Part shown: in pieces, positions 1,845 to 28,119 of the stretch
Layout: each line of letters begins with the position of its first letter
Numbering within the stretch: the stretch's first letter is position 1
Assembly (NCBI GenBank): GCA_051294375.1
Contig: CM119265.1
Span: forward strand, 5,863,730 to 5,927,729
Origin: Paraspadella gotoi
Lineage: Eukaryota; Animalia; Chaetognatha
Length of the DNA: 64,000 bases
Reading direction: 5' to 3'
Notes under the pieces: generated by a model
What the model saw: only the letters and a program-made list of their open reading frames with translations
What the model was told of the DNA's origin: nothing
Database searches by the model: none
Program-made: the position numbers and the translations under genes

Positions 1845-3552
1845 GTAAGTTAACGCTGAGGACGACAATGACAGCGACGAACCGACAAGAAAGATGACGG
1901 AGATCACAATGACATAATGGTCTTTCACAGATCCGCCATCACAATTGTCAGTTTAATGCGGGACGTAAATGATAAAGACGACCAAAATGACCGGAGGGGT
2001 TTGCTAAAGATGACAATGATGGAGATGAAGAAGTTACAAGATAAAAAAAAAGTCGAATATTTATTTATATTTGTTTATTCATGAGAAAAACAAATATATA
2101 ATTTCTCATTTATAATTTCAAACCGTTAAACGCCGATGAAAGCTTAATTGAACTAAAAGGCAAAAAATGTCTGTTTTATTGTCAAATAGAAATCGTTGTA
2201 AATATTCAAACTTTGCCAATCTCTAATTTCTAAGCTGTACTGAATTATAGAGGAGACCTTTTCCAGGATTTTGATGGATAAATAATTGGAGTATATCTAA
2301 GACAATTTCAGTTTAATGACAACTACAGAGACGACAATGATGACGATGCTGTGGTCGACGACGACGACAACGACGACGCTTCCATCGACTCTTCGGGTCT
2401 CAAGTTCCAACGAATGAAAATGAATCGAGAAACGTGGATTCGTTTCTTCGCCTAACGACTCGAGGAACCGCAGTCTTCTCTTTCATGAAAATGAAAAAAA
2501 NNNNNNNNNNNNNNNNNNNNNNNNNAGAGAGAGATGAAAGACAAAAAGTAAGGAACAGAAAGGAGAGAAAGGGAGGAGGAGGAAAAGAAGAGAAAAGAAA
2601 AGAAACATTGGGAAAAAGGAAAGAAAAAAGTCAGAAAGGGAGGGATAGAAAAGAAAACATTGGAGAAAGGAAAGAAAAAAAGTCAGAAAAAAATGGAAAC
2701 CCGATCAGCCGGAGTAAAGGGCAAAGCAAAGAAAAACTTTGGAGCGAAGGCGAAACAAAACCAAAAAAAAAAAAAAACCCGAATACAATGGAAACAATAT
2801 TGAAGAGAAAAAAAAGGGATTGCGCGCCGATAATATATTGCGAATCTAAGCGAGAGAACAAAAGTTACTTTAAAATTTTCGTATTTTGAAAAGAGAAACA
2901 AGTTTGACGACAAGCTAATACCCACACTGATACAGATTCTTTAAACGAGTCGAATAAAATAAAAATTCGGGGTTTTTTTTTTAGAGGGAGAGAAGAGAGT
3001 GAGTTTTCTTCATCGAGAATGTACAAAAATTTTCTTAGTATAGATTTTTTTTTCTTCCTTTTTTAAAAATTTTCTTTACAAGTTTCTTTCCTGGTTTCAG
3101 AGTCTAGCGCTTCGAGCAATTTTTTTTTCTGTCGCCACAACGTTATCAATATCATTCTTTATAAAGATTTTTTCCAAAGCCCCGCCTTTCGGGTTTTAAA
3201 ATAATATGATATGTATATTTGTTGCTTTCTTTTCGTTGTGTTTTTGGGCAATTTATCAAAACCACAATTATTTGTTTACAGTAAGTTTGAGGACACCGAT
3301 AAAAAAAAATATTTTTGATAAAATTACGAATTATACTATACAATTTATTTTTCTAGGAGATTTCCTTGATAGAAAATAAATCAAATATTTTAATACGAAA
3401 ATGCACTGCGGGTTTTGTAAACTTATAGTTGGTTTAATGAACATTGTACTTTATACATTCAATGATATCGTAATTTCAATCTCGTATTTTAGTTTCACTT
3501 TCCAATTTTCACAATCGAAAATCTCGCCGCTGAGCCTCAGGCGACCTCAACC

Positions 3553-3733
3553 ACTTTCCGCTCGGTATACTTCATGGCAGAGGGCGTTGGCCAATGCCGC
3601 TTGAAGCCAAGGAGCCGCGATGCGGCGTTGGCGGCCGCCGACGTCAGCGCCATCGAGTTGAATCACGTCCGCTCGTCCTTGAGAGATGGCACCGCAGGAG
3701 GTGGGGATGGCGCCGGGGGTAAAGGTCGCGCGC
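3553..3733 (-). CDS. Frameshifted duplicate copy of the 12653-12826 exon
   Basis: Reverse complement with indels; ORF 3547..3864 shows TPGAIPTSCGAI. Confidence 0.55.
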
Positions 3734-4614
3734 CTGGGAAGGGTAAGGGATGAGAAGTGCGGCAATTTCGGTTCAAGGACAGCATAGGCCGCCATTACAA
3801 TACTTAACGAATCACATTGCCGTTTGGTAATGACGATTTTAAGTAACAAAAGGGCTCGTTTCATTACTTACATTACATTCGCATTGTAATGTAAAGTACA
3901 TTATATCAAGGCAAAGTCAGGATGCCAGAAGCTTCCTAGATGAAATATTGATATTCCTATATTGGTACGCAATTTCATTAAATAACATTACTTTACATCA
4001 CATTCTATTGTATAGGCATTATATTAAGTGGGCAAAGTTAGGAAGCCCAGATAGCCTAATTGAATAAATGTCGCATATTTCCTTTAAAGTTATATGGCGT
4101 TTAAATTAAATTTAATCAATATTTTAAATTGTGAATTAGCCGGCGAAGTCGCGATCCCGCTGTTGGGAGCACGGATTGGAGGCGGCGGGGCTGCGGGACA
4201 ATAGGTGAAAGTCCGCGAATTTCTCGCGAACGCTGGAATTTGAGGGGGGGGGGGTGAAAAAAGGGTTCGTGAAATAAATCGGGATTTCTAAGAAAGTCAT
4301 CTAAGTTGATTATTGAATATCAATCATGTCATTAATGGTGAATGATTGAGCTGAGTGATTAAAACCATTGCGATAAACTTGTAAAAGGTCATCTACTTGT
4401 AAAAACGTTTTTGATTTTATCAATAAATTTGCGTCCGAAATTGAATTTTAGGAATGCCCGACTCTGGTGACTTAATTCTCTCTGTTCAAAGTTGAAAAAA
4501 TATCTAATTGAAAAGCAAACTGGATGCGGGTGATCACATAGACATCCGGTAATGTTTATTTTCTCTCTCTCTCTCTCTCTCTCTGCTCTCTCTCGGTCTC
4601 CTCATCTCTTTCTC

Positions 4615-4666
<52 letters not shown>

Positions 4667-4892
4667 ATTGATTCGAGTGTTTTCCTCAGTATACGGCTCG
4701 CGATAAATCAAACCGAAAAACACAGCGCGACGTTGACAAGGCGACGGGAAAACAAAACAAAACTCGCAAAAAAGATGTTACCAAAAAACGGCAAAAAAAA
4801 ATGTAAGTCTCGTCCTCTGCAGATCGGGGATTTTGTAAAAAGCAGGGCCGGAGACAATGAACGTCACATAAAGCTTATAGACAGCTGTGTGT

Positions 4893-4963
<71 letters not shown>

Positions 4964-4971
4964 CGAGAGAG

Positions 4972-10634: not shown

Positions 10635-10845
10635 ATGACGACGACGGCGTCGGAGTCTGCAGCGGCGTCGTCGCCGTCAACGTCTTGGCACCAACTCGCA
10701 ACTTTTTATCTATTTTCGAACTTTCCCCGTTTCGGTCGGTTCCATTCCAGCGCGGGTCGTCGTCGCTTTCGTAGTCATCATCGTCGTCGTTGTCGTTTTA
10801 TGCATAATCATCGCAGCCTTTCCCCATCCTTTGCCAAAATCGACG
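10635..10845 (+). CDS. Possible upstream exon with a hydrophobic signal/anchor segment (..AVVVAFVVIIVVVVVLCIIIAAFP..)
   Basis: Hydrophobic frame ending at GTGAGT (10845-10850), on the same strand and 1.8 kb upstream of the 12653 exon. It is partly (GTC)n repeat, so it may be spurious. Confidence 0.3.
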
Positions 10846-12652
10846 TGAGTCGTTTTCGTCACGATGGCGTTTCGTTACTATTTCTTTTCTTTTTTTAATG
10901 TTTTCTTGTCACTCCACCATTCCACCGGTATGAACAAGCAACTTAAAAATTATTTAATATTTATTCATTTAATAAACAAAGCTATTGGACACTGGACAGG
11001 CTAAGTTAATTTGTTTTGGGAACTCGTGGTGTTTTTTTGTTGTTTTTTTCTTTTGAGTGTGTCGTTTGTAATTTTTTTATCAGTAGAAAAGAAGAAAACA
11101 GAAGAGCAGTCCGAAGACGATCTTAAAAAATGGCGCCGAAACTGAACATGGAATCTGAAAGGAATCAGGGACGACGACGAAGAGCGACGACGAAGACGAA
11201 TGAGAAAAGAGGATTATTGGAATTGTAACTCATTGGTGACTTCAAACGAAATGACTGGATATGAAGATTCTATTGAGAAGGCGGATTTACTGAAACGCTC
11301 GCCGTCCTACTCACCAGCGGCATCTCTCTCTCTCTATCCATCTCTCTCTCTCTCTCTGCTCTCTCTCCTCTCTCTCTCATCTCCTCTCTCTCTCTCTCTC
11401 TGCTCTCTCTCTCTCACACACACCACAGCTGTCCTTTAAGGCTTTATGCGGTCATTGTCTCCGGCTGCTTTTTACATCCGGCGATCTCGGGAGCGAGACT
11501 TACATTTTTTTCCTTTTTTTGGTCAAATCTTTTTGCCTGCGAGTTTTGTTTATTGTTTTCGCCGTCGCGCTGCTGTCAAACGTCGCGGCTGTTGTTTTTC
11601 TGGTTTGATTTATCGCGCAAGCCGTATACCTTGATGCGAGAACACTTTACTACAAATAGTGAGAGAGAAACGAAGAACGAGGAAAAGGAAAAAAGACATA
11701 GCATTAAGGGATAGTAAGACTGAGACAGCTACACGATAGAAGAGAGAAGAAGAGAGAGACTGACCTAAACCTGATGAGAGAAGATGAGAGACGACGAGAG
11801 AAGAGAGAGAAAATAAAACATTACCGGTATGTTCTATTTGGTGATCACCGCGCATCCAGTTTGATTCAATTAGCGATATTTTGTTCAACTTTACAGAACA
11901 GATGGAATTAAGTCACCAGAGTCGGATCCAAAAATCATTTCGGACGCAAATTTATGATAAAATCCAAAACGTTTTTAAAGTAGATGACCTTTTTACAAGT
12001 TTATCGCAAGTGGTTTAATCACTCACTCAATCATTCATCATTAATGAATGATTGATAATTCAATCATCAATTAATGAACTTTCTTTTTAGAAATCCCGAT
12101 TTATTCACGACCCCTTTTTTCACCCCCCCCCCTCAAATTCAGCGTTCGGAGAAATTCGCGACTTTCACCTATTGTCCCGCAGCCCCGCCGCCTCCAATCC
12201 GGTGTCCAACAGGGATCGCGACTTCGGGTAATTCACAATTTAAAATATTGAATTAAAATTTAATTTAAAAGTAATATAACTTAAAGAAATATGCGTCATT
12301 TATTCAATTAGCTATCTGGCTTCCTAACTTTGCACTAATATAATGCTATACAATAGAATGTGATGTAAAGTAATGTTATTTTTAAAATTGAAATTGGTAC
12401 CAATATAGGAATATCTATCATTTATTAGGTAAGCTTTCTGGCATCCTGACTTTGCCTTGATATAATGTACTTTACATTACAATGGAATGTAATGTTAAGT
12501 AATGTAAACGAGCCCTTTTGTACTTAAATCGTCTTAGCCCTGTTATAATGCACTTAACGTACATTACAACGGAATGTGATTGTAAGTATTGTAATGGGGC
12601 CCTATTGTCCTTGAACCGAAATGCCGACTTTCTCATCCCTTACCCTCTCCAG

Positions 12653-12826
12653 GCGCGGACCTTACCCCCGGCGCCATCCCCACCTCCTGCGGTGCCATCT
12701 TTCTCAAGGACGACGACGTGATCAACTCGATGGCGCTGACGTCGGCGCCGCCCAACGCCGAGTCGCGGCTCCTTGGCTTCAAGCGGATGGCCAACGCCCT
12801 CTGCATGAAGGATACCGAGGGAAAGG
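12653..12826 (+). CDS. Internal coding exon (174 nt, phase 1-1) of an unknown protein: ADLTPGAIPTSCGAIFLKDDDVINSMALTSAPPNAESRLLGFKRMANALCMKDTEGK
   Basis: Polypyrimidine acceptor tctcatcccttaccctctccAG at 12651-52 and donor GTGAGT at 12827. The frame is open with C/G-ending codons, and the exon is a GC-rich island in AT-rich flanks. This frame is absent from the ORF track. Confidence 0.75.
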
Positions 12827-13892
12827 GTGAGTCCGCCTGAGGCTGCAGCGCGAGATTTCGATTGTGAAATTGGAAAGTGAAATCTAAAATACGAGGATTG
12901 AAATTACGATATCATGAATGTATAAAGTACAATGTTCATTAAACCAACTATAAGTTAAAAACCCGAGTGATTTCGTATTAAAATATGATTTTATTCTATC
13001 AAGGAAATCTCCTAGAAAAATAAATTGTTAGTATTACATTCGTATTTATCAAAAATATTTTTTTATTTATGTTGTCCTCAACTATGTAAACAAAATAATT
13101 GTTTTTGATAAATTGCCCAAAACACAACGAAAAGAAAGCAACAAATATACTATATCATATTATTTAAAACCCGAAGGCGGGCTTTGGAAAATCTTTATAA
13201 AGATATTGATATTGATAACGTTGTGGCTGGACAAGAAAAAAAAATTGCTCGAAGGTAGAATCTGAAACAGGAAAGAAACTTGTAAAGAAAATTTTTAAAA
13301 AAGGAGAAAAAAAAATCTATACTAAGAAAAGTTTTGTACATTTTTCTCGATGAAGAAAACTCACTCTCTTTCTCTCCCTCTAAAAAAAAAACCCCGAATT
13401 TTTATTTTTATTCGACTCGTAAGAATTGTATCAGTGTTGGTATTAGCTTTGTCGTCAAACTTGTTTCTCTTTTCAAATACGAAAATTTTAAACGGTAACT
13501 TTGTTCTCTCGTTAGATTCGCAATATATTTATCGGGCGAATCCCTTTTTTTTTCTTCAATATTGTTTTTCCATTGTATTCGGGGTTTTTTTTTTTTTGGT
13601 TTTGTTTCGCTTCGCTCCAAAGTTTTTCTTTGCTTTGCTTTACTCGGCTTGATCGGGTTTCCATTTTTTTCTGACTTTTTTTCTTTCCTTTTCCAATGTT
13701 TTCTTTTCTTTTCTCTTCTTTTCCTCCTCCTCCCTTTTCTCTCCTTTCTGTTCTTTACTTTTGTCTTCTTCTATTTCCTTCTCAAATTGCCCCCTTTAAA
13801 ATTTATTCACTTCGTCGCCTTCACGCGGTGTAGTGTTACAGCTCCTCAGTGGCGACAGGGGCTTTGCGAGTTCCGCTCATAATTTCTGGCAA

Positions 13893-13928
<36 letters not shown>

Positions 13929-13995
13929 NNNNNNNNNNNNNNNNNNNNNNNNNAGAGAGAGATAAAAAACGGGCGACAGAGAGAGAGAAGAGAGA

Positions 13996-14044
<49 letters not shown>

Positions 14045-14139
14045 AGAGAGAGAAGAGAGAGAGAGAGAGACAGATCGAGTGAAAAGCTATAGACCCCGAA
14101 TAAAATGGATTCGGTTTCCCTCCATGTATTCCGCCTCTC

Positions 14140-14564
14140 GAGAGAATTTTTATCCAATCAACTGACTCTCGCGACGACGAGCACGAACGAAGGCGAAATC
14201 GTGGAAGTCCGGCAAAGAGGAAGATAAATGCGAGAGAAGTTGCGACGCAGACTTATACGTTTGAAAGGATTGCGATGCCGGTGCAAAGTGTATTAAACGT
14301 GAATCATGAAGACATCCCAAATACGTACAGCAGTAGTTCAGTCAAGGAAATTGATAAAAAGGTAGCCGTAGGAATTCGGCGCGCTCGTTGCATACAGTGT
14401 ATCGTGGTCAATCTCTTGAAACGCCTTCGTCGAAACCGACGCGAAGTAGCCGACAAAAAGAGTTCCCTTTGGCCGACGCGAAGATGACCACGTTGTCGGT
14501 AAAAACTCCCACTCAAAAGATTGGAGATCTCCCCACGCGACCGAGAACGAGGAGCTGTCATTAA
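14140..14564 (-). CDS. Duplicate copy of the 27537 exon
   Basis: Reverse complement; ORF 14304..14768 shows the fragments EISNLLSG, LTTIHC and YVFGM. Confidence 0.5.
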
Positions 14565-14896
14565 CTGCGGCATAACGAACCGAGATGGCCGGAGAATAAT
14601 ACTCGGGATATGATTTCGACGCTCCTGCTTTGGGGAATTCGAAGAAACAAATCTCTGAGGAAGATCTTGGCTGGTTTTGGACATTAGTGCAACAGAAATG
14701 TTTTTTTTTATAAAAAAAGGAAACAGAAATTCAAGTGTAACAAATATGCTGAAATTATTTAATTTCATTCAATAAACGAGGATATGTGGACTAAAATCCA
14801 CACCGTTCATGCAGGCGGCCAATTGGTGGCCGGACAGGCAAGTCATTCGCCTCCGCCAACCCTACAGGTCCGGGGTTCTTAGCCCTGTGGTCGCCT

Positions 14897-14975
14897 AGGC
14901 AGTTGAGAGGGACGGGCGCTTAAACCCCGCCTGTAACGCGGTGTTACAGCCTGATCCGAAGCTCAGGGACTGCTT
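14897..14975 (+). ncRNA. Candidate twister ribozyme, circularly permuted type P5
   Basis: Order: AGGCAGTT (P5 5') - gag - AGG (P2') - GA - CGG - gcgct (reduced P1) - TAA - (a)CCC - C - GC - CTGTAAC gcggt GTTACAG (P3) - CCTGA TCCGAAGC TCAGG (P4 with U-NNN-AAGC loop) - GACTGCTT (P5 3'). Loop CCG is complementary to the CGG after the conserved GA (T1), and GC/GC can form T2. P2 has one mismatch and P1 is minimal. Confidence 0.72.
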
Positions 14976-15547
14976 ATATATGAACGGTTCTGTCACTAAA
15001 CCATAACAATTTTCAACTGTTTCTTTTGAGAGATAGTCTTGCCCCTTGAAATTGAACGAATTAAGGTCGGCAAGTCTTTCCGTCCCGTCTTACAAAGATG
15101 AATAACTGACCTTTCAAATCAAAAATATCGGCACTAATAGTTTACTAACTCGCACTTAACTTTAGTCATCAATTAAATAATTATTATATTAGTCTAGATC
15201 GTTTCATTAAATTTTGACACAAGTACTGGAAATCAACGAAGGTATATGAAGAATTAAACCTTGGTTTACGTTTATATTCGCATTAAAATTCATTTAAATT
15301 CAAAAACCCTCGAATGAAACGAATATATTTCAAATTATATAAAGATTTAATAAAATAATAAATTATAAATTTTTAATAAAATTATTAAAACTAAACGAGA
15401 AGCACCGGAGAACGAAACGTACAGTACGTGCGATTTGTAACGATCGGCCGTACGGTCGATGCAAATGCGGGGTTTCCGATCGAAGAATTTGAGACGCGAA
15501 ATCGAAAACATTTCGTGTTCGACGTTTTGACCTCATGAGAGTTGAGA

Positions 15548-15855
15548 AGAGACGTGGGAGAGGAAGACGTTTGGGAACGGGAGACGTTTGGGAGAGGAAG
15601 ACGTTGGAGAGGGAGACGTTGGAAGAGGGAGACGTTGGGAGTAGGAAGACATTGGGAGAGGGAAGACGTTGGGAAGGGGAGGCATTGAGAATTGAGAGGG
15701 AGACGTTGGAGAGAGGGGACGATTATTGGGAGAAGGGGAGACAGCTTGGAAGAGGTGACGTTGGGAGAGGGAAGATATTGGGAGAGGAGACGTTGGGGAA
15801 GAGGTAAACATTAGGATAGGGAAGACGTTGGGAGAGGAGACGTCGGGGAGGGAGA
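15548..15855. repeat. Degenerate 16-18-bp minisatellite (GGGAGAGGGAGACGTT)n
   Basis: Recurring GACGTTGGGAGAG; reverse copies at 26270-26582 and 21965-22030. Confidence 0.85.
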
Positions 15856-16160
15856 GAGAGAGGAACGTGGAGATGAAAAATGAAGGAGGATGACGGGAAG
15901 AGAAATAAAAAAGACATATTGACGTCAAACAAAAGATGAAAAAAAATTGAATGAGAAGAAAAAAAGGAAGGAAATCTCATCGTCGTTTTGTCGTCGTCGC
16001 CAAGAAAAAATTTGCATATGAAAAAAAACCTCTCGGATAAAACGTAAGAAAAGAAGATCTTCAATTCTGCCTCGAAAAACATTAAAAAATAGCAATATTC
16101 CATTAAAAAAATCAAAGTCCCCAGAAAAAAAAATAGGATGACGTTCGCTTTCTTCTCTCT

Positions 16161-16225
<65 letters not shown>

Positions 16226-17029
16226 CTCTCTCTCTCTCTCTCTCGCCCTCTCTCTCTTGTTTCGTCGTTCGTGTCGACGAAGGTCTTTTTGTTTTTCTTC
16301 TTTTTTTCTTCATTTATAGAGTTTGCAGGCGACGTCACTCGGAATTTGTTTAACTCAATCGCCGTCATTAGCTGGCCGGTTTTGAAATGGCGTTGCCGTA
16401 TCGTTTGCTCGGTCCACATCTGTAAAACTTGAGTCATAAAATTTAATTCTCAGAAACGGCCTTCAATGTTTTATAATATTTTCAACAATGTCAACAAATA
16501 TCTCATAAAAATAATATACAACGTAGCTTTCATTATCCATATTAATTTTTGCTTGCCGTGACCGTCCATCCCTGTTAGCTACCTCCTCCTCCTCCTCCTC
16601 ACTCCTTCTCGGTAGTGTGAACGAATGACTCGTCAATACAAACGCAAAAAAAAAAAAGTCAAGAAAACTTTTTTTTTCGTAATTGAAAAGAAAAAAAAAA
16701 GCGTTTTCGAACGTTACAAACGAAAACGCGACGAACGACGAACGACGACGACGATAACAACGAAGCCCCACGATACACTAACGCGGCAACCAACGATCAT
16801 CACGACGCAACGACCACGACCAACGACCAAAAGGCAAAAAACTAAACGAACCATCAAACGACATAACAAGGAAACAACGGAAGGGACACAAAAAACCTGG
16901 GTCGCAATCGCCAGTTTTGAAACCAAACAAATCATAGCGACACCACAAAAACGAGGAAAAGAAAAAGTAAAAAAAAACTGGGACGACGCTGGGGAATGAT
17001 GATTTCTTTTTTTTTAGGAAAGAGAGATT

Positions 17030-17705
17030 TTTTTTTTCACTTTTTTTCCTCGTTTTGTGTCGCTATGATTTGTTTGGGTTCAAACTGGCGATTGGACCCA
17101 GTTTTTGTGTCCCTTCCCGTTGTTTCCTTGTTTATGTCGTTATGGTCGTTAGTTTTCTTTGCCGTCTGTTGGTCGATTGGTCGGTTGGTCGTTGCGTCGT
17201 GGTTCGTTGGTTTCGCCCGCGTTAAGTTGTTATCGTCGGGGCGGCCATTGTTGTTATCGTCGTCGTCGTTCGTCGTCGTCGGTTTTCGTTGTAAGTTCGA
17301 AAACGTATTTTTTTTTTCTTTTCATTACGAAAAAAAAAAGTTTTCTTGACTTTTTTTTTTTTGCGTTTGTATTGACGAGTCATTCGTTTCACACTACGAG
17401 AAGGAGGAGGAGGAGGAGGAGGAGTAGTAACAGGAGGACGGTCACGCAAGCAAAAATTACAATGATAATGAAAGTAACGTGTATATTATTTTTTATGATG
17501 ATATTTGTTGACATTGTTGAAAATTATAAAGACATGAAGGCCGTTTCTGGAATTAAATTTTATGACTCAAGTTTTACGAGTGACCGAGGCAACGATACGC
17601 AACGCCATCAAAACCGCAGCAATGACGGCGATTGAGTTAAACAAATTCCGAGTGACGTCGCCTGCAAATCATAAATGAGAAAAAAAGAAGAAAAACAAAA
17701 GACCT
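17030..17705 (+). repeat. Fold-back copy of 16280-16975
   Basis: Reverse complement immediately adjacent to its template; also matches 20835-21525 and 25165-25845. Confidence 0.93.
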
Positions 17706-18213
17706 TTCATCATTCGTCGTCGTTGTCGTCTAGGCATAATCATCCAGCCCTTTCCCATCCTTTGCCAAAATCGACGGTGGTCGTTCGTCATGATGGCCGT
17801 CGTTACCATCTTCTTTTTTAGGACCGCGATGAACAAGCAACAGAAAAATTATTCAATATTTTATTCATTTTAATAAACAAATCTATTGGATACCTGGACA
17901 GGCTATGTTAATTTGTTGGGGAACTTCGGGTGTTTTTTTTTTTTTTTTTTTGAGGTGTGTTCATTTTGAAATTTTTATCAGTAGAAAAGAAGAAAACAGA
18001 AGAGCAGTCCAAGACGATCTTATAAAATGGCGCCGAAACTGAACATGGAATCTGAAAGGAATCAGGGACGACGACGAAGACGACGACGAAAGACGAATGA
18101 GAAAGAGGATTATTGCGAATTGTAATCATTGGTGACTTCAAACGAAATGACTGATAGAAGATTCATTGAGAAGGCGGATTTACCTGAAACGCTCGCCGTC
18201 CTACTCACACGCA

Positions 18214-18303
<90 letters not shown>

Positions 18304-19444
18304 CCACAGCTGTCCTTTAAGGCTTTATGCGGTTCATTGTCTCCGGCTGCTTTTTACATCCGCCGATCTCGGAGAGACGAGACTTACATTTTTTCCTTTT
18401 TTTGGGTCAAATCTTTTTTTGCGAGTTTGTTTTTGTTTTCGGCGCGTCGCGCTTGTCAACGTCGCGCTGTGTTTTTCGGTTTGATTATCGGAAGCCGTAT
18501 ACCTTGAGGAAAACACTTCGAATCAGATAGCATAGATAGAGATGAGAGCAGAGAGAGAGAGAGAGAGAAGAACGATGAGAGAGAGGAGACGACTGAGAGA
18601 AGAGAGAGAAAATAAACATTACCGGATGTTCTATTGTGATCACCGGATCCAGTTTGTTCAATTAGATAATTTTTTCAACTTTAAGAACAGATGGAATTAA
18701 GTCCACCAGAGTTCGGATCCTAAAATCATTTCGGACGCAAATTTATGATTAAAATTCCAAAACGTTTGCTAAGTTAGATGACCTTTACAGTTTATCGCAA
18801 GTGGTTTAATCACTCACTCAATCATTTATCATTAATTGAAATTGATGATAATTCAATCATCAATTAATGAACTTTCCTTTTAGAAATCCCGATTTATGTC
18901 ACGACCCCTTTTTTCACCCCCCCCCTTCAAATTCAGCCGTTCGGAGAAATTTTCGCGGCACTTTCACCTATTGTCCCGCCAGCCCCCGCCGCCTCCAATC
19001 CGGTGCTCCAACAGCGATCGCGACTTCGGGTAATTCACAATTAAAAATGAATTATAATTTAATTTAAAGTAATATAACTTTAAAGAAGAAAATATCGCGA
19101 CATTTATCAATTAGCTATCTTGGCTTTTCCTAACTTTGCCACTAATATAATGCTTATACAATAGAATGTGATGTAAAGTATTGTTATTTAATTGAAATTG
19201 GTTACCAATATAGAGAAGTTATCAATTATTACATTAGGTAAGCTTTCTGGCATTTCCTGACTTTGCCTGATTATAATGTACTTTACATTACAATTCGGGA
19301 ATGTAATGTTAAGTAATGTAAAACGAGCCCTTTTGCTACTTAAAATCGTCATTTACAAACGGAATGTGATTGTAAGGTATTGTAATGGGGCCCTATTGTC
19401 TTTGAACGAAATGCCCGACTTTCTCATCCCTTAACCCTCTCCAG

Positions 19445-19631
19445 GCGCGGACCTTACCCCCGGCCGCCATCCCCACCTCCTGCGGGTGCCATCTTTCTCA
19501 TGACGACGGACGTGATCAACTCCGTGATGGCGCTGACCGTCGGGACGACCCAACGCCGAGTCGCGGCTCCTTTGCTTCAAGCGGCGTATGCCAACCGCCG
19601 CTCTGCATTGAAGGGATACCCGAGGGAAAAG
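19445..19631 (+). CDS. Frameshifted duplicate copy of the 12653-12826 exon
   Basis: Same acceptor and GTGAGT donor; ORF 19500 shows DVINS/MALT. Confidence 0.55.
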
Positions 19632-20750
19632 GTGAGTCGCCTGAGGCTGCAAGCGCGAGATTTCGATTGTGAAATTTGGAAAGTGAAATCTAAAATTAAC
19701 GAGGATTGAAATTAACGATTATTCTGAATGTATTAAAGTACAATGGATCATTAAACCAACTATAAGTTAAAAACCGAGTTGATTTCGTATCTAAAATATG
19801 TGATTTTATTCTTCAAGGAAAATCTCCTAGAAAAATAATTGGTTCATGTATTACATTTCGTATTTTATCAAAAATATTTTTTTATTTATGTTGTCCTCAC
19901 TCCGATCTAAACAAAAAATTGTTTGTTGACAATTGCCCAAAACACAAACGAAAAGAAAGGCAACAAAGTTATACTATATCATATTATTTTTTAAAACCGA
20001 AGGCGGGGCTTTGGAAAATCTTTATAAACGATTATTGATATTTGATAACGTTTGTTGCTGGACAAGAAAAAAAAAATGCCTCGAGCGTAGAATCTGAAAC
20101 AGGAAAGGAAACTTGTAAAAAATTTTTATTAAAATGGAGGAAAAAAAAATCTATACTTAAGAAAAGTTTTGTTTACGATTTTTTCGCATGAGAAAGAACA
20201 CTCTCTTTCTCTCCCTCTAAAAAAAAAACCCCGAATATTTTATTTTTATTCGACTTCGTAAAGAATTGTATCAGTGTTAGTTATTAGCTTTGTACGTCAA
20301 ACTTCTTTCTCTTTCAAATACTAAAATTTTTAAACGGTAACCTTTTGTTCTTCTTCGTTAGATTCGCAATATATTTTATCGGGCGAATCCCTTTTTTTTT
20401 TCTTCAATATTGTTTTTCCATTGTATTCGGGGGTTTTTTTTTTTTGGGTTTGTTTCGCTTCGCTCCAAAGTTTTCTTGCTTTGCTTTACTCGGCTTGATC
20501 GGGTTTCCATTTTTTTCTGCACTTTTTTTTCTTTCCTTTTTCCAATGTTTTCTTTTCTCTTCTCTTTTTTCCTCCTCCTCCCTTTCTCTCCTTTCTGTTT
20601 CTTACTTTGTCTTCTTTCTTTCCTTCTCAAAATTGCCCCTTAAAATTTATTCACTTCGTCGCCTTCACGCGCTGTAGTGTTACAGCCTCCTCAAGTGGCG
20701 ACAGGGGGTTTGCGAGGGTTCCCGGTTTCATAATTTCTGGCAATATCTCT

Positions 20751-20786
<36 letters not shown>

Positions 20787-21638: not shown

Positions 21639-22536
21639 AGAGAGAGAGAGAGACCGAGAAGCGNNNNNNNNNNNNNNNNNNNNNNNNNACGTCATCCTAT
21701 TTTTTTTTCTGGGACTTTGATTTTTTTAATGGAATATTCTATTTTTTAATGTTTTTCGAGGAGATTGAAGATTCTTCTTTTCTTACGTTTTATCGAGAGG
21801 TTTTTTTTCATATGCAAATTTTTTCTTGGCGACGACGACAACGACGATGAGATTTTCCTTCTTTTTTCTTTCTCATTCAATTTTTTTTTCATCTTTTGTT
21901 TGACGTCAATATGTTTTTTTTTTCTCTTCCCGTCATCCTCCTCATTTTCATCTCCACTTCCTCTCTCTCCCTCCCCGACGTCTCCCTCTCCCAACGTCTC
22001 CCTATCCTAATGTTTACCTCTCCCAACGTTCATCATTCGTCGTCGTTGTCGTCTAGGCATAATCATCCAGCCCTTTCCCATCCTTTGCCAAAATCGACGG
22101 TGGTCGTTCGTCATGATGGCCGTCGTTACCATCTTCTTTTTTAGGACCGCGATGAACAAGCAACAGAAAAATTATTCAATATTTTATTCATTTTAATAAA
22201 CAAATCTATTGGATACCTGGACAGGCTATGTTAATTTGTTGGGGAACTTCGGGTGTTTTTTTTTTTTTTTTTTTGAGGTGTGTTCATTTTGAAATTTTTA
22301 TCAGTAGAAAAGAAGAAAACAGAAGAGCAGTCCAAGACGATCTTATAAAATGGCGCCGAAACTGAACATGGAATCTGAAAGGAATCAGGGACGACGACGA
22401 AGACGACGACGAAAGACGAATGAGAAAGAGGATTATTGCGAATTGTAATCATTGGTGACTTCAAACGAAATGACTGATAGAAGATTCATTGAGAAGGCGG
22501 ATTTACCTGAAACGCTCGCCGTCCTACTCACACGCA

Positions 22537-22626
<90 letters not shown>

Positions 22627-23767
22627 CCACAGCTGTCCTTTAAGGCTTTATGCGGTTCATTGTCTCCGGCTGCTTTTTACATCCGCCGATCTCGGAGAGA
22701 CGAGACTTACATTTTTTCCTTTTTTTGGGTCAAATCTTTTTTTGCGAGTTTGTTTTTGTTTTCGGCGCGTCGCGCTTGTCAACGTCGCGCTGTGTTTTTC
22801 GGTTTGATTATCGGAAGCCGTATACCTTGAGGAAAACACTTCGAATCAGATAGCATAGATAGAGATGAGAGCAGAGAGAGAGAGAGAGAGAAGAACGATG
22901 AGAGAGAGGAGACGACTGAGAGAAGAGAGAGAAAATAAACATTACCGGATGTTCTATTGTGATCACCGGATCCAGTTTGTTCAATTAGATAATTTTTTCA
23001 ACTTTAAGAACAGATGGAATTAAGTCCACCAGAGTTCGGATCCTAAAATCATTTCGGACGCAAATTTATGATTAAAATTCCAAAACGTTTGCTAAGTTAG
23101 ATGACCTTTACAGTTTATCGCAAGTGGTTTAATCACTCACTCAATCATTTATCATTAATTGAAATTGATGATAATTCAATCATCAATTAATGAACTTTCC
23201 TTTTAGAAATCCCGATTTATGTCACGACCCCTTTTTTCACCCCCCCCCTTCAAATTCAGCCGTTCGGAGAAATTTTCGCGGCACTTTCACCTATTGTCCC
23301 GCCAGCCCCCGCCGCCTCCAATCCGGTGCTCCAACAGCGATCGCGACTTCGGGTAATTCACAATTAAAAATGAATTATAATTTAATTTAAAGTAATATAA
23401 CTTTAAAGAAGAAAATATCGCGACATTTATCAATTAGCTATCTTGGCTTTTCCTAACTTTGCCACTAATATAATGCTTATACAATAGAATGTGATGTAAA
23501 GTATTGTTATTTAATTGAAATTGGTTACCAATATAGAGAAGTTATCAATTATTACATTAGGTAAGCTTTCTGGCATTTCCTGACTTTGCCTGATTATAAT
23601 GTACTTTACATTACAATTCGGGAATGTAATGTTAAGTAATGTAAAACGAGCCCTTTTGCTACTTAAAATCGTCATTTACAAACGGAATGTGATTGTAAGG
23701 TATTGTAATGGGGCCCTATTGTCTTTGAACGAAATGCCCGACTTTCTCATCCCTTAACCCTCTCCAG

Positions 23768-23952
23768 GCGCGGACCTTACCCCCGGCCGCCATCCCCACC
23801 TCCTGCGGGTGCCATCTTTCTCATGACGACGGACGTGATCAACTCCGTGATGGCGCTGACCGTCGGGACGACCCAACGCCGAGTCGCGGCTCCTTTGCTT
23901 CAAGCGGCGTATGCCAACCGCCGCTCTGCATGAAGGGATACCGAGGGAAAGG
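23768..23952 (+). CDS. Frameshifted duplicate copy of the 12653-12826 exon, collinear with the downstream exon at 27537
   Basis: Identical to the 19445 copy up to 23931. Confidence 0.55.
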
Positions 23953-25931
23953 GTTGAGTTCGCTTGAGGCTGCAAGCGCGGAGATTTTCGATTGGCTGAA
24001 ATTTGGAAAGTGAAATCTAAAATACGAGGATTGAAATTAACGAGTTATCATGAATGTATTAAAGTACAATGGTCATTAAACCAACTATAAGTTAAAAACC
24101 CGAGTGATTTCGTATTAAAATATGTGATTTTATTCTTCAAGGAAATCTCCTATGAAAAATATATTGGTTATGTATTACATTTCGTTATTTTATCAAAAAT
24201 ATTTTTTTATTTATTTAGTCCTCACTATGCTAAACAAAAAATTGTTTGGTTGACAATTGCCCAGAAACACAACGAAAAGGAAAGCAACAAACTTATACTA
24301 TATCATATTATTTTAAAACCCGAAGGCGGGCTTTGGAAAATCTTTATAAAGATATTGATATTTGGATAACGTTTGTTGCTGGACGAAGAAAAAAAAAATG
24401 CCTCGAAGCGTAGAATCTGAAACAGGAAAGAAACTTGTAAAAAATTTTTATTAAAAAGGAGGAAAAAAAATCTATACTTAAGCCAAAAGTTTTGTTACAT
24501 TTTTTTCGCATGAAAAAATCACTCTCTTTCTCTCCCTCTAAAAAAAAAACCCCGAATTTTTATTTTTATTCGACTTCGTAAGAATTGTATCAGTGTTAGT
24601 ATTAGCTTTGTCACGTCAAACTTTTTCTCTTTCAAAATACTAAAATTTTTTAAACGGTAACTTTTGTTCTCTCGTTAGATTCGCAATATATTTATCGGGC
24701 GAATCCCTTTTTTTTTTCTTCAATATTGTTTTTTCCATTGTATTTCGGGGTGTGTTTTTTTTTTGGGTTTGTTTCGCTTCGCTCCAAAGTTTTCTTGCTT
24801 TGGCTTTACTCGGCTTGATCGGCGTTTCCATTTTTTTCTGACTTTTTTTCTTTCCTTTTTCCATATGTTTTCTTTTCTCTTTCTTTTTTCCTCCTCCTCC
24901 CTTTCTCTCCTTTCTGTCTTCTTACTTTGTCTTTTTCATTTCCTTCTCAAATTGCCCCTTTAAAATTTATTCACTTCGTCGGCCTTCACGCTGCTTGTAG
25001 TGTTACAGCTCCTCAAGCTGCGACAGGGGCCTTTGCGAGGGTTCCGCGGTTTTCCATAATTTCTGGCAATATCTTCTCTCTCCTCTCTCTCTCTCTCTCT
25101 CTCTTCTCCTCTCTCTCTTTCCTAAAAAAAAAAGAAATCATCATTCGCCCAGCGTTCGTCCCAGTTTTTTTTTTTTCACTTTTTCCTCGTTTTGTGTGTC
25201 GCTATGATTTGTTTGGTTCAAAACTGGCGATTTGGGACCCAGTTTTTGCTGTCCCTTCCCGTTGTTGCCTTGTTATGTCGTTTATGGTCGTTAGTTTTCT
25301 TCTCTGCGGTCGATGGTCGGTGGTCGTGGTCGTGAGTCGTTGGTGTTCGCGCTTTCAGTTGTATGTGGGGGCCTTGTTCGTCGTCGTCGTTCGTCGTTCG
25401 TCGCGTTTTCGTTGTAAGTTCGAAACGCTATTTTTTTTTTCTTTTCATTACGAAAAAAAAAGTTTTCTTGACTTTTTTTTTTTCGTTTTGATTGACGAGT
25501 CATTCGTTCACACTACGAGAAGGAGGAGGAGGAGGAGAGGAGTAGCTAACAGGGAGGACTGGTCACGGCAAAGCAAAAATTACATATGATAATGAAAGCT
25601 ACGTTGTATATTTTTTTATGATGATATTTGTTGACATTGTGTGAAAATTATAAAGACATTGCAAGGCCGTTTCTGAGAATTAAATTTTATGACTCAAGTT
25701 TACGATGTGACCGAGGCAAACGATACGCAACGCCATTCAAACAACGCCAGCTAATGACGGCGTTGAGTTAAACAAATCCGAGTTGACGTCGCCTGCAATA
25801 CTCTATAAATTGAAGAAAGAAAAGAAGAAAAACAAAAGACCTTCGTCGACACGAACGACGAACAAGATGAGAGAGGGGAGAGAGAGAGAGAGAGAGGATG
25901 AGAGAGAGATAGAGAGAGAGAGAGCAGAGAT

Positions 25932-25962
<31 letters not shown>

Positions 25963-27123
25963 TGAGAGAGAGAGAAGCGAAACGTCATCCTATTTTTTTT
26001 TCTGGTGACTTTGATTTTTTTAAACTGGAATATTCTAATTTTTAATGTTTTTCCGAGGCATGATTTGAAGATCTTTCTTTTCTTACGTTTTATCGAGAGG
26101 TTTTTTTTCATATGCAAATTTTTCTTGGCGACGACGACAACGACGATGAGATTTTCCTTCTCTTTTATATCTTCTCATTCAATTTTTTTTCATCTTTTGT
26201 TTGGACGTCAATATGTTTTTTTTTCTCTTCCCGTCATCCTTCCTTCATTTTCATCCTCCACTTCCTCCTCTCTCCCTCCCCGACGTCTCCCTCCCCAAGA
26301 CGTCTCCCTATCCTAATTTTACCTCTTCCCCAACGTCTCCCGTTCCCAATATCTCCCTCTCCCAACGTCACCTCTTCCAAGCGTCTCCCTTCTCCCAATT
26401 TCAACGCCTTCATCTCACCTCATCCCAAACGCGTCTTCCCTCTCCCAATGTCATCACGTCTCCCTCTTCCCACGTTCTCCCTCCCAATGTCTTCCNNNNN
26501 NNNNNNNNNNNNNNNNNNNNTCTCCCAACGTCTCCCTCTCCCAACGTCTCCCTCTCCCAAAGTCTTCCTCTCCCACGTCTCTTCTCACTCTCATGAGTCA
26601 AAACGTCGAACACGAAATGTTTTCCGATTCGCGTCTCAAATTCTTCGATCGGAAACCCCGCATTTGCATCGACGACGGCCGACGTACAAATCGCACGTAC
26701 TGTACGTTCGTTCTCCGGTCTTCTCTTTAGTTTTAATAATTTATTAAAAATTTATAATTTATTATTTATTATAATCTTTTATAATTTGAAATATATTCGT
26801 TTATTCTGAGGGTTTTTTGAATTTAAATGAATTTTAATGCGAATAAAACGTAAACCAAGTTAATTCTCATTATACCTCGTGATTTCCAGTACTTTGTTCA
26901 AAATTTAATGAAACGATCTAGATAATATAATAATATTTAATTGAGATAAAGTAAGTGCGAGTTAGTAAACTATTAGTGCGATATTTTTGATTGAAGGTCA
27001 GTTATCATCTTGTAAGACGGACGGAAGACTTAGCCGACCTTAATTCGTTCAATTTCAAGGGGCAAGATATCTCAAAAGAAACAGTGAAAATTGTTATGTG
27101 TTAGTGACAGAACCGTTCAATAT

Positions 27124-27200
27124 AAGCAGTCCCTGAGCTTCGGATCAGGCTGTAACACCGCGTTACAGGGGGGTTAAGCGCCCCGTCCCTCTCAACTGCT
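27124..27200 (-). ncRNA. Second assembled copy of the twister candidate
   Basis: Reverse complement of 14897-14975. It keeps GGGACGG, TTAACCCC, P3, the TCCGAAGC loop and P5, but lacks the G of the T2 GC (probable read deletion). Confidence 0.65.
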
Positions 27201-27536
27201 AGGCGACCACAGGGCTAGAACCCCGGACCTTAGGGTTGGGAGGCGAATGACTTGCTTCCGGCACCAATGGCCGCTGATGAACGGTTGGTGGATTTTAGTC
27301 CACCATCTCTCGTTTATTGAATGAATAAATAATTTCGATATTTGTTGCACTTGAATTTCTGTTTCCTTTTTATAAAAAAAAAACATTTGTTGCACTAATG
27401 TCCAAAACCAGCCAAGACTTCTCCAAGATTTGTTCTTCGAATCCCCAAGAGGAGCGTCGAAATCATATCCGAGTATCCGCTCGGAAGATTCGCTAAACAC
27501 TGATTTATTTCGGCCATCTCGGTTCGTTATGCGCAG

Positions 27537-28035: not shown

Positions 28036-28119
<84 letters not shown>

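What the first reader, a model, noticed from the sequence alone, without database searches (positions are those of the whole stretch)
14765..14985. ~210-bp GC-rich chain of hairpins carrying the twister: possible small ribozyme-bearing mobile element
Seen: upstream of the twister lie consecutive stems GTGGACT-aa-AATCCAC, GGCCA-attgg-TGGCC and AGGCAAG-tca-TTCGCCT. There is also an alternative long helix (CGGGGTT..GCCCTGT pairing with ACGGGC..AACCCCG) that would sequester the cleavage strand. All this sits in an otherwise AT-rich intron with no ORF. Inference: a non-autonomous retrozyme- or SINE-like element, with a competing fold that could switch the ribozyme off. Described retrozymes typically use hammerheads, so a twister-based one would be notable.
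Basis: partly seen in the sequence, partly recalled or inferred. Interest (0 to 1): 0.7.

Follow-up and report, generated by a model that had tools for sequence, protein, structure and literature searches.

The report
Permuted twister-like ribozyme, mobility not shown
An 81-base stretch of non-coding DNA likely encodes a rearranged version of the self-cutting "twister" RNA, closest to the twisters carried by jumping genes of blood flukes, but nothing in this window shows that the stretch itself jumps or that a competing fold switches it off.

Summary

Rfam finds no twister or other ribozyme, even at E<=10. Checked by hand against the published twister descriptor, 14896-14976 (+) reads as blocks C-A-B, the type-P5 order:
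- It has N-A-A, GC, GA, U and AAGC, both pseudoknots (T1 3/3, T2 2/2), P2 at 3 of 4 pairs, and stems P3, P4 and P5.
- P1 is missing; a 6-nt cap stands in its place.
- An A-U pair replaces the near-invariant G-C pair.

At 33 of 39 aligned positions it matches the Schistosoma twisters that head Perere-3 retrotransposons. Each of its three core deviations kept relative activity of about 0.85 when tested in rice Osa-1-4.

The "sequestering" helix exists in the sequence but is no better than chance: 428 of 1000 shuffles pair at least as well.

The only other copy (27123-27201, minus strand) lies inside a 3.2-kb inverted segmental duplication. Similarity runs through both flanks. There is no tandem array, target-site duplication, tail or RT gene.

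Verdict: probably a new permuted variant of a known ribozyme. Cleavage is untested. The mobile-element and switch readings are unsupported. Genome-wide copy number and expression could not be checked.

The parts
14786..14801 (+). Small hairpin GUGGA-CUAAAA-UCCAC (5 bp) at the 5' edge of the GC-rich stretch
   Evidence: Sequence; present in the minimum-free-energy fold; identical in copy B.
14813..14896 (+). Upstream structured domain. A 9-bp long-range stem (14813-14821 with 14888-14896) encloses a long imperfect arm and a T-arm-like hairpin (CGGGG-UUCUUAG-CCCUG, 14871-14887). It is tRNA-shaped only loosely.
   Evidence: Pair probability is 0.57-1.0 for the long stem and 0.92-0.96 for the hairpin; both are in the MFE fold. 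The best Rfam hit is the tRNA-like mascRNA-menRNA model at 14.9 bits, E 4.1, far below its gathering score of 42.5. ARAGORN finds 0 tRNAs. A-box and B-box matches are at chance frequency.
14896..14976 (+). Twister-like core in block order C-A-B (type P5), closed by P5 (UAGGCAGU 14896-14903 with ACUGCUUA 14969-14976, 8 bp)
   Evidence: It is the only hit in the window to the relaxed descriptor. P5 pair probability is 0.83-1.0. The descriptor comes from the Eckert et al. 2023 supplement.
14907..14915 (+). Block C: the 3' strand of P2 (GAGG, 14907-14910), the conserved GA (14911-14912), and the T1 strand CGG (14913-14915)
   Evidence: CGG is complementary to CCG in loop L4 (3 of 3 Watson-Crick pairs).
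14916..14921 (+). Six-nt cap GCGCUU in the place of stem P1; no P1 helix is possible
   Evidence: Sequence. The published descriptor requires a 4-bp P1.
14922..14930 (+). Block A: N-A-A = AAA (predicted cut between A14922 and A14923), the 5' strand of P2 (CCCC, 14925-14928, with a C14927.A14908 mismatch), and the L2 dinucleotide GC (14929-14930, T2 strand)
   Evidence: Published S. mansoni twisters also carry AAA at this site (PMC8501958 Table 1).
14931..14949 (+). P3 hairpin CUGUAAC-GCGGU-GUUACAG (7 bp)
   Evidence: Sequence. At 6 of 7 positions on each strand it matches the base of P3 in S. mansoni twisters; exact CUGUAAC and GUUACAG variants occur there too.
14950..14967 (+). Block B: P4 (CCUG with CAGG) and loop L4. 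In L4, A14954-U14963 replaces the near-invariant G-C pair; then U14955, T1 strand CCG (14956-14958) and AAGC (14959-14962, whose GC forms T2).
   Evidence: This stretch is 100% identical in copy B.
27123..27201 (-). Copy B of the twister-like core. P3, P4, L4 and the 3' strand of P5 are identical to copy A. It has UAA at the cut site and a 6-nt cap, but lacks the G of the L2 'GC' (the Osa G13 equivalent) and one G of P5.
   Evidence: It fails the descriptor at the 'RC' position (one search returned copy A only).
13964..17027 (.). The 3.2-kb segment that carries the feature. It is duplicated in inverted orientation at 25112-28128 (86.7% identity by blastn).
   Evidence: Global alignment gives 81.5% identical columns, with 323 substitutions and 260 indel columns.

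Best explanation
The stretch 14896-14976 on the plus strand is most likely a circularly permuted (type-P5 order) relative of the twister self-cleaving ribozyme, predicted to cut its own transcript between A14922 and A14923.

Shown by the sequence:
- Block order C-A-B.
- The conserved N-A-A, GC, GA, U and AAGC.
- Complementary strands for both pseudoknots.
- A P2 helix with one C.A mismatch.
- P3 and P4 hairpins and an 8-bp closing stem P5.
- P1 is absent; a 6-nt cap stands in its place.

Inferred:
- The RNA would fold into the twister double pseudoknot.
- It would cleave to give a 2',3'-cyclic phosphate on the upstream piece (which carries the hairpin domain 14786-14896) and a 5'-OH on the downstream piece.
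- It descends from the retrotransposon-associated twister lineage known from Schistosoma.

The upstream hairpins are a neighbouring structured domain with no demonstrated link to the ribozyme. The locus is one arm of a 3.2-kb inverted duplication, not a demonstrable mobile element.
For: 1. Descriptor match. The published twister descriptor is NAA..RC..GA..GU...AAGY.C with stems P1, P2, P4 and a 3-bp pseudoknot; type P5 equals block order CAB (Eckert et al. 2023 supplement, PMC10085705). I relaxed it to need no P1, a P2 of at least 3 of 4 pairs, and any pair in place of G-C. It then hits once in the 64-kb window on both strands, at 14907-14966.

2. Background rate. Random windows of the same composition give 0.137 hits each; 11% of 300 hold at least one. 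Requiring also a P5 of at least 8 bp (probability 0.013) and a filled or short P3 gap (probability 0.20) gives about 4e-4 per window.

3. Natural control. 29 metagenome loci (74,534 bases) all hold the identical 18-nt P4/L4 hairpin by chance. None of the 29 has blocks C and A.

4. Likeness to Schistosoma twisters. Against Sma-1-146 in Table 1 of PMC8501958, 33 of 39 aligned positions are identical by my own count. Among 17 positions fixed neither by the consensus nor by pairing, 14 are identical. The P3 base is CUGUAAC/GUUACAG here and CUGUAGC/GUUACUG there.

5. Essential positions. The four positions of Osa-1-4 that tolerate no substitution (G13, G30, A46, G48; PMC5113685) are all kept in copy A.

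6. The three deviations, each tested singly in Osa-1-4 (my reading of the supplementary activity matrix):
- G23A with C32U, relative activity 0.85.
- G42A, the same C.A mismatch in P2, 0.84.
- C27G with G47C, the same flipped T1 pair, 0.86.

7. P1 is reported dispensable for cleavage in vitro (PMC5408937 passages).

8. Conservation. Between the two copies, 14880-14999 has 1 substitution in 120 nt and 14838-15027 has 3 in 190 nt. Both are the lowest values in the 3.2-kb unit, where the next lowest are 3 and 6, and about 10% of positions are substituted overall.
Against: - Rfam 15 reports no twister-P1, -P3, -P5, twister-sister or other ribozyme family at E<=10 on 551 or 106 bases around the site, nor anything at the gathering score in the window.
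- P1, counted among the three essential stems in the consensus definition, is absent. The S. mansoni paper calls cleavage without P1 inefficient.
- The near-invariant G-C pair of L4 is A-U, and P2 has a mismatch at its conserved C-G pair. The three deviations were never tested together.
- The nearest-neighbour model prefers a rod-like fold of the 81 nt (-32.1 kcal/mol) over the nested twister helices (-21.2). P3 and P4 have pair probability 0.01. Pseudoknots are not scored in this model.
- I relaxed the descriptor after seeing the candidate, so the chance estimate is post hoc. Across a scan of very many windows, some such matches are expected.
- There are only two copies and no compensatory change, so there is no covariation support.
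- Copy B lacks the G13 equivalent.
- No expression data are available.
Confidence: 0.45

Rival explanations
1. It is a decayed, catalytically dead relic of a twister, for example left over from a retrotransposon 5' end or from a tandem pair of type-P1 units. It persists as neutral sequence inside a duplicated segment.
For: P1 is lost. There is a C.A mismatch at the conserved C-G pair of P2, and A-U replaces the near-invariant G-C. Copy B lacks the essential G13 equivalent. Rfam is silent. The thermodynamic fold prefers a different structure. No RT or endonuclease domain lies downstream: none of 33 ORFs reaches a Pfam cut-off.
Against: All four mutation-intolerant positions are kept in copy A, and each deviation is tolerated singly in Osa-1-4. 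An 8-bp P5 closes the permuted order exactly where a type-P5 ribozyme needs it; the chance of such a stem is about 0.013. The stretch has the lowest substitution density in the 3.2-kb duplicate.
Confidence: 0.25
2. The twister resemblance is coincidental. The stretch is some other GC-rich structured sequence, such as a rod-like hairpin RNA, a degenerate tRNA-like or SINE-head relic, or a patch homogenised by GC-biased gene conversion.
For: No Rfam ribozyme hit. The MFE is a rod at -32.1 kcal/mol with z -2.3. The region also draws as a four-arm cloverleaf at -25.6 kcal/mol, better than the nested twister helices. The relaxed core descriptor alone hits 11% of random windows. The P4/L4 18-mer occurs by chance in 29 metagenome contigs.
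Against: The combined features are expected about 4e-4 times per window. None of 29 natural carriers of the same hairpin has the other blocks. The 14 of 17 identity to Schistosoma twisters at positions free of consensus and pairing constraints is hard to get by chance. tRNA tests fail: ARAGORN finds 0, no tRNA model matches at E<=10, and box motifs are at chance frequency.
Confidence: 0.2
3. One reading: the whole ~210 bp is a non-autonomous, retrozyme- or SINE-like mobile element carrying a twister, with an upstream strand that can sequester the cleavage site and switch the ribozyme off.
For: Ribozyme-bearing SINE-like elements (a Pol III promoter followed by a hammerhead in Schistosoma) and retrozymes exist (PMC6765202 passages). 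Twister variants serve Perere-3 retrotransposition (PMC8501958), and this core resembles them. A loosely tRNA-shaped domain sits directly upstream. The 13-bp alternative helix is in the sequence.
Against: There are two copies in 64 kb, both inside a 3.2-kb inverted duplication with similarity running through both flanks, so there are no element boundaries. There is no tandem array, flanking direct repeat, poly(A) or simple-repeat tail, or LTR. A-box and B-box matches are no more frequent than in shuffles for the B box, and 2-mismatch matches are common throughout for the A box. In C-A-B order the cut separates block C from blocks A-B, so a cleaved linear RNA would not carry a whole ribozyme; this is unlike Perere-3. 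The helix is not better than shuffles (428 of 1000) and has pair probability 0.0.
Confidence: 0.1

Closest known systems
[quoted passage not shown] 2021, PMC8501958; I saw the abstract, passages, Table 1 and supplement searches)
   Same: The core matches closely. Theirs reads AAA | CNCC | GC | CUGUA(G/A)C...GUUAC(U/A)G | CC(U)G | (G/A)UCC(C/G)AAGC | (C/U)C(A)GG. 33 of 39 aligned positions are identical to Sma-1-146. Both carry three A's at the cut site and a P3 stem at the same place.
   Different: Theirs are type P1 (blocks A-B-C), with P1 formed partly by the target-site duplication and an APE/RT ORF downstream. Here the order is C-A-B with a P5 closing stem, no P1, A-U in place of G-C in L4, a flipped T1 pair, no RT or APE domain within 4.5 kb downstream, and no target-site duplication.
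Type-P5 twister ribozymes (Rfam RF02684 by recall; class defined by Roth et al. 2014, described in PMC5408937 and PMC10085705)
   Same: Same circular permutation, with the ends in P5 and block order CAB. Same set of conserved nucleotides and the two pseudoknots.
   Different: Canonical members have a P1 hairpin between block C and block A and pass the Rfam model. This one has a 6-nt cap and gives no Rfam match at E<=10.
Engineered 'mini-twister' lacking P1 (Kosutic et al. 2015, seen only as summarised in PMC5408937)
   Same: A twister core without P1, reported to cleave at close to the wild-type rate.
   Different: That is a laboratory two-strand construct with a free single nucleotide 5' of the cut. 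Here the nucleotide 5' of the cut is tethered to the T1 strand through a short loop, in a natural sequence of untested activity.
Ribozyme-bearing non-autonomous retroelements: plant and metazoan retrozymes, and Schistosoma Sm-alpha SINE-like elements with hammerheads (PMC6765202 passages; PMC4918200 abstract only)
   Same: A small self-cleaving ribozyme in non-coding, ORF-less sequence, with a structured and loosely tRNA-shaped domain upstream.
   Different: Those have defined ends, target-site duplications, LTRs or Pol III boxes, many copies or tandem arrays, and unit-length or circular RNAs. None of these was found or could be tested here.

Membership tests
Twister ribozyme (any permutation) | N-A-A at the cleavage site directly 5' of the 4-nt 5' strand of P2 | tested here: met
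   AAA at 14922-14924 is followed by CCCC at 14925-14928. N = A also occurs in published S. mansoni twisters.
Twister ribozyme (any permutation) | L2 dinucleotide RC pairing with the GY of L4 (pseudoknot T2) | tested here: met
   G14929 and C14930 pair with G14961 and C14962, 2 of 2 pairs, in copy A. Copy B lacks the G.
Twister ribozyme (any permutation) | GA followed by 3 nt complementary to 3 nt of L4 (pseudoknot T1) | tested here: met
   GA at 14911-14912, and CGG at 14913-14915 against CCG at 14956-14958, give 3 Watson-Crick pairs. The third pair is flipped relative to the consensus; the same flip kept relative activity 0.86 in Osa-1-4.
Twister ribozyme (any permutation) | L4 consensus G-U-NNN-A-A-G-Y-(N)-C, with its near-invariant G-C pair | tested here: not met
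   U and AAGC are present, but the G is A14954 and the C is U14963, giving an A-U pair. Among the seed rows I read, G-to-A appeared once and the C was never replaced. The Osa-1-4 double mutant G23A/C32U kept relative activity 0.85.
Twister ribozyme (any permutation) | P2 of four base pairs | tested here: inconclusive
   3 of 4 pairs form. C14927.A14908 falls at the conserved C-G pair. The equivalent single mutant G42A kept relative activity 0.84.
Twister ribozyme (any permutation) | P4 of at least three base pairs | tested here: met
   CCUG at 14950-14953 pairs with CAGG at 14964-14967, 4 bp.
Twister ribozyme (any permutation) | Stem P1 (4 bp in the published descriptor) next to the cleavage site | tested here: not met
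   Only 6 nt (GCGCUU) lie between the T1 strand and N, so no helix is possible. P1 is reported dispensable for catalysis in vitro but is phylogenetically conserved.
Twister ribozyme (any permutation) | Match to the Rfam covariance models | tested here: not met
   There are 0 matches at the gathering score in the window. No twister family appears at E<=10.
Twister ribozyme (any permutation) | Site-specific self-cleavage | not testable with these tools
   This needs in vitro transcription or RNA end mapping. No sequencing runs were listed.
Twister ribozyme (any permutation) | Covariation supporting the helices and pseudoknots | tested here: inconclusive
   Only two copies are available. Inside the core they differ by single-base indels and show no compensatory pair. 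No relatives were found in metagenome contigs: 29 loci, all chance matches.
Twister/Perere-3-type non-LTR retrotransposon | Ribozyme at the 5' end of an element encoding APE/RT, flanked by target-site duplications | tested here: not met
   None of 33 plus-strand ORFs of at least 35 aa in 14977-19500, and none of 68 ORFs of at least 75 aa across the window, reaches a Pfam cut-off. There is no flanking direct repeat beyond short AT-rich chance matches.
Retrozyme | Two LTR-like direct repeats each holding a ribozyme, PBS and PPT, target-site duplications, circular RNA | tested here: not met
   There is one ribozyme-like core per copy and no direct repeat of it. The second copy is inverted and 12 kb away, inside a larger duplication. 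Circular RNA is not testable here.
tRNA-derived SINE | Internal Pol III A and B boxes, a 3' tail, target-site duplications, many dispersed copies | tested here: inconclusive
   The box-like motifs at 14816 and 14874 need 2 mismatches each. At that stringency the window has 181 A-box and 74 B-box matches, against 128 and 143 in shuffles. ARAGORN finds 0 tRNAs. There is no A-rich or simple-repeat tail after 14976. Genome-wide copy number is not testable because no genome is held.

The most novel reading that the evidence does not exclude
This is a natural twister that has dispensed with stem P1, capped instead by a six-base loop, and works in the permuted type-P5 order. It is fused behind a tRNA-shaped leader, and the pair forms a twister-based SINE- or retrozyme-like element related to the ribozymes of fluke retrotransposons.
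Probability: 0.08. Interest if true: 0.75.

Novelty: new variant of a known kind. Interest (0 to 1): 0.45.

Why it matters
If the core cleaves, it would be a natural counterpart of the engineered P1-less 'mini-twister', and a permuted member of the animal twister lineage whose one proposed biological role so far is retrotransposon processing. That would widen what homology searches should accept as a twister, since Rfam misses this one. It would also offer a case for asking how permuted forms arise, for example from tandem type-P1 units. If it does not cleave, it is a relic marking past retroelement activity. In neither case does the present evidence support a new kind of mobile element or a riboswitch-like off-state.

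Tried and rejected
- **Whole-genome search:** no genome is held for this window.
- **Sequencing runs:** none was listed, and no RNA holder was listed. Expression, RNA ends and circular junctions are therefore untested.
- **Earlier findings:** nothing by place or by sequence.
- **Metagenome scan:** I scanned with the 18-nt P4/L4 stretch and got 29 loci. All are chance matches of 18-26 nt, mostly in what looks like coding sequence. They served as a natural control.
- **The register I tried first:** GAGGG as L1, the CGGG/CCCG hairpin as P1, and UGUAA as the cut site. I rejected it because the P2 strands would then be CGCG and UUGA, which do not pair, and UGUAAC is the 5' strand of a 7-bp hairpin.
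- **Type-P1 order:** 0 hits on either strand. A downstream GGAG-GACGG at 17433-17441 lies in a GGA-rich low-complexity stretch 2.5 kb away and was dismissed.
- **tRNA or Pol III head:** ARAGORN finds 0 tRNAs, no tRNA model matches at E<=10, and box motifs are at chance frequency.
- **Coding potential of the flank:** ORF 14341-14730 (minus strand) gave one hit among 1.84 billion representatives. The hit is a 1076-aa translation of a ~65-residue tandem repeat. Each stretch scores only about 25 bits (pairwise E 0.001), and the overall E-value is inflated by 15 repeats, so I judged it spurious. Its cluster carries no name.
- **Exon-like piece 12655-12828:** no homologues among longer proteins.
- **Rfam at E<=10 on 14050-14800 and E<=5 on 12450-12950:** nothing relevant.
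- **Supplement of PMC8501958:** no listed twister variant contains this core's L4 or block C motifs. Only the P3 motifs occur there.
- **Roth et al. 2014:** not held. What I say of it comes from reviews.
Full report
**1. What is at the coordinates**

- The stretch 14786-14976 is a GC-rich island in AT-rich surroundings. GC is 0.58 at 14800-14999, against 0.335 at 14600-14799 and 0.21 at 15200-15399.
  - GUGGA/UCCAC, 5 bp, at 14786-14801.
  - GGCCA/UGGCC at 14817-14831.
  - An imperfect AGGCAAG/UUCGCCU at 14836-14852.
- Folding prefers a 9-bp long-range stem (14813-14821 with 14888-14896) that encloses a T-arm-like hairpin (14871-14887). Pair probabilities are 0.57-1.0 and 0.92-0.96.
- Stability exceeds shuffled sequence only modestly: z about -2 on either strand, with 6 and 7 of 200 shuffles folding as well; z is -1.9 and -2.3 for the two halves.

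**2. Is there a twister? Library searches**

- Rfam 15 finds nothing at the gathering score in the 64-kb window.
- It finds no ribozyme family at E<=10 in 14600-15150 or 14885-14990.
- The best weak hit is the tRNA-like mascRNA-menRNA model at 14815-14894: 14.9 bits, E 4.1, against a gathering score of 42.5.
- ARAGORN finds no tRNA in the window.

**3. Is there a twister? Descriptor check by hand**

I took the published twister descriptor from the supplement of Eckert et al. 2023 (PMC10085705).

- Conserved nucleotides: NAA, RC, GA, GU, AAGY, C.
- Stems: P1 (4 bp), P2 (4 bp), P4 (3 bp), and a 3-bp pseudoknot.
- Blocks: A (P1-5', NAA, P2-5', RC), B (P4 and L4) and C (P2-3', GA, T1 strand, P1-3').
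- Type P5 corresponds to block order CAB.

The plus strand reads in that order:

| Element | Sequence | Coordinates |
|---|---|---|
| P5, 3' strand | UAGGCAGU | 14896-14903 |
| Linker | UGA | 14904-14906 |
| P2, 3' strand | GAGG | 14907-14910 |
| Conserved GA | GA | 14911-14912 |
| T1 strand | CGG | 14913-14915 |
| Cap in place of P1 | GCGCUU | 14916-14921 |
| N-A-A | AAA | 14922-14924 |
| P2, 5' strand | CCCC | 14925-14928 |
| L2, T2 strand | GC | 14929-14930 |
| P3 hairpin | CUGUAAC-GCGGU-GUUACAG | 14931-14949 |
| P4 | CCUG / CAGG | 14950-14953 / 14964-14967 |
| L4 | A-U-CCG-AAGC-U | 14954-14963 |
| P5, 5' strand | ACUGCUUA | 14969-14976 |

How it scores against the descriptor:
- T1 is CCG with CGG, 3 of 3 pairs.
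- T2 is GC with GC, 2 of 2 pairs.
- P2 forms 3 of 4 pairs, with a C14927.A14908 mismatch.
- It departs from the descriptor in three further ways: no P1, an A-U pair where a near-invariant G-C is expected, and a flipped T1 pair.

The register I tried first (GAGGG as L1, UGUAA as the cut site) fails at P2.

**4. How likely is this by chance?**

- I relaxed the descriptor just enough to admit the candidate: no P1, P2 at least 3 of 4, any pair in place of G-C. It then hits once in the window, at 14907-14966.
- In type-P1 order it hits nowhere, although the window holds 19 block-B-like hairpins.
- Random windows of the same dinucleotide composition give 0.137 hits each; 11% of 300 have at least one. 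The core alone is therefore not significant.
- Requiring also an adjacent P5 of at least 8 bp (probability 0.013) and a P3 gap that is short or filled by a hairpin (probability 0.20) brings the expectation to about 4e-4 per window.
- As a natural control, 29 metagenome contigs carry the very same 18-nt P4/L4 hairpin by chance. None of the 29 has blocks C and A.
- These numbers are post hoc, because I relaxed the descriptor after seeing the candidate. Over a very large scan, some such matches will occur.

**5. Independent support: likeness to a known lineage**

- Table 1 of Liu et al. [quoted passage not shown]
- Against Sma-1-146 the candidate is identical at 33 of 39 aligned positions, with two one-base insertions and a shorter P3 tip. 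This is my own count.
- Among the 17 positions fixed neither by the consensus nor by pairing (P2-5', the base of P3-5', P4-5', and the T1 strand of L4), 14 are identical.
- Variants with exactly CUGUAAC and GUUACAG occur among the fluke sequences in that paper's supplement. This core's L4 and block C motifs do not occur there.
- This argues for common descent with the animal, retrotransposon-associated twisters rather than coincidence.

**6. Would such a variant cleave?**

- The mutational scan of rice Osa-1-4 (PMC5113685, whole text) found only G13, G30, A46 and G48 intolerant of every substitution. Copy A keeps all four equivalents.
- From the supplementary activity matrix I read the following relative activities:
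  - G23A with C32U, the same A-U pair: 0.85.
  - G42A, the same C.A mismatch in P2: 0.84.
  - C27G with G47C, the same flipped T1 pair: 0.86.
- My reading of the matrix rows was checked in two ways. The G23A diagonal value of 0.80 agrees with 0.65/0.821 from the paper's validation table. The compensatory C11U/G42A double mutant reads 0.93.
- These are 2-hour end-point values for one change at a time. The combination is untested.
- P1 is reported dispensable in vitro (PMC5408937), but Liu et al. call cleavage without P1 inefficient.
- The nearest-neighbour model prefers a rod-like fold (-32.1 kcal/mol) over the nested twister helices (-21.2) or a cloverleaf drawing (-25.6). P3 and P4 have pair probability 0.01. 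Pseudoknots are not scored in this model.

**7. The proposed off-switch**

- The 13-bp two-part helix is in the sequence: 14871-14877 with 14923-14929, and 14882-14888 with 14912-14917.
- The best duplex between the upstream 110 nt and the core strand is -23.8 kcal/mol. Shuffled upstream sequence gives -23.4 +/- 3.1, and 428 of 1000 shuffles are at least as good.
- The pair probability of the helix is 0.0. Enforcing it costs as much as enforcing the twister helices: both give -76.7 against an MFE of -86.2.
- It is an expected by-product of two G/C-run hairpins lying side by side.

**8. Mobile element?**

- A 401-bp query around the site finds one other copy, at 27006-27383 on the minus strand, 90% identical.
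- That copy is part of a 3.2-kb inverted duplication, 13964-17027 against 28128-25112, at 86.7% identity. The duplication sits within a tangle of nested duplications and scaffold gaps.
- Similarity continues through both flanks of the GC-rich stretch, so no element ends are visible.
- I found no tandem array, flanking direct repeat, tail or LTR.
- No protein family reaches its cut-off in 68 ORFs across the window or in 33 plus-strand ORFs downstream.
- Pol III box look-alikes are as common as in shuffled sequence.
- In C-A-B order the predicted cut separates block C from blocks A-B. A cleaved linear RNA would therefore not carry a whole ribozyme. This fits a Perere-3-like life cycle poorly.
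- Genome-wide copy number and RNA evidence could not be obtained.

**9. Conservation between the two copies**

- The 3.2-kb units differ by 323 substitutions and 260 indel columns.
- The stretch 14880-14999 has 1 substitution in 120 nt, and 14838-15027 has 3 in 190 nt. Both are the lowest values in the unit; the next lowest are 3 and 6.
- Within the core, P3, P4, L4 and the 3' strand of P5 are identical.
- The differences in the core are single-base indels. The one apparent substitution, at 14929, can equally be read as two deletions (my inference). Copy B has UAA at the cut site and a 6-nt cap, but lacks the G of the L2 'GC'.
- The very high ratio of indels to substitutions suggests sequencing errors, so the state of copy B is uncertain.
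- There are no compensatory changes, hence no covariation evidence.

**10. Verdict**

- Most likely this is a permuted, P1-less relative of the twister ribozyme from the lineage known in fluke retrotransposons. It is predicted, not shown, to cut between A14922 and A14923.
- A dead relic or a chance look-alike remain serious rivals.
- The 'mobile element' and 'switch' readings have no support in this window.
- It is best filed as a new variant of a known kind, of moderate interest, with a simple cleavage assay as the decisive test.

Noticed in passing
window 12653-12828 (+); paralogues near 19440-19620 and 23760-23940 (+) and 3550-3750 (-): A GC-rich, exon-like piece of about 58 codons (…PGAIPTSCGAIFLKDDDVINSMALTSAPPNAESRLLGFKRMANALCMKD…). 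It is bounded by ...ctctccag| and |gtgagt, and is repeated in each copy of the neighbouring 3-kb unit. It has no Pfam family and no homologue among longer proteins.
   Followed up: partly
window 2585-28128: A tangle of nested duplications. Unit 10775-13927 recurs at 17707-20780 and 22030-25104, and inverted at 2585-4968. Segment 17706-22029 is tandemly repeated at 22029-26336 (94% identity). There is a palindrome, 16280-17706 against itself. 25-N scaffold gaps lie at unit borders (13929-13953, 21664-21688, 26496-26520), so part of this layout may be an assembly artefact.
   Followed up: partly
window 30008-33182: A satellite array of about 39 copies of a ~76-bp unit, with about 72% matches and many indels.
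   Followed up: partly
window 13964-17027 versus 25112-28128: The two copies differ by almost as many single-base indel columns (260) as substitutions (323). This ratio is unusually high and points to sequencing or assembly errors in at least one copy.
   Followed up: no
window 14503-14688 (-): An ORF-like translation weakly resembles (31% identity over 62 residues, about 25 bits per stretch) a 1076-residue predicted protein that is itself the translation of a ~65-residue tandem repeat from an unnamed contig. I judged it spurious.
   Followed up: yes
window, many sites (for example 14006-14084, 16150-16260, 28014-28117): Very frequent (GA)n/(TC)n microsatellites throughout the window. They dominate self-comparisons and produce long low-complexity ORFs.
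   Followed up: no
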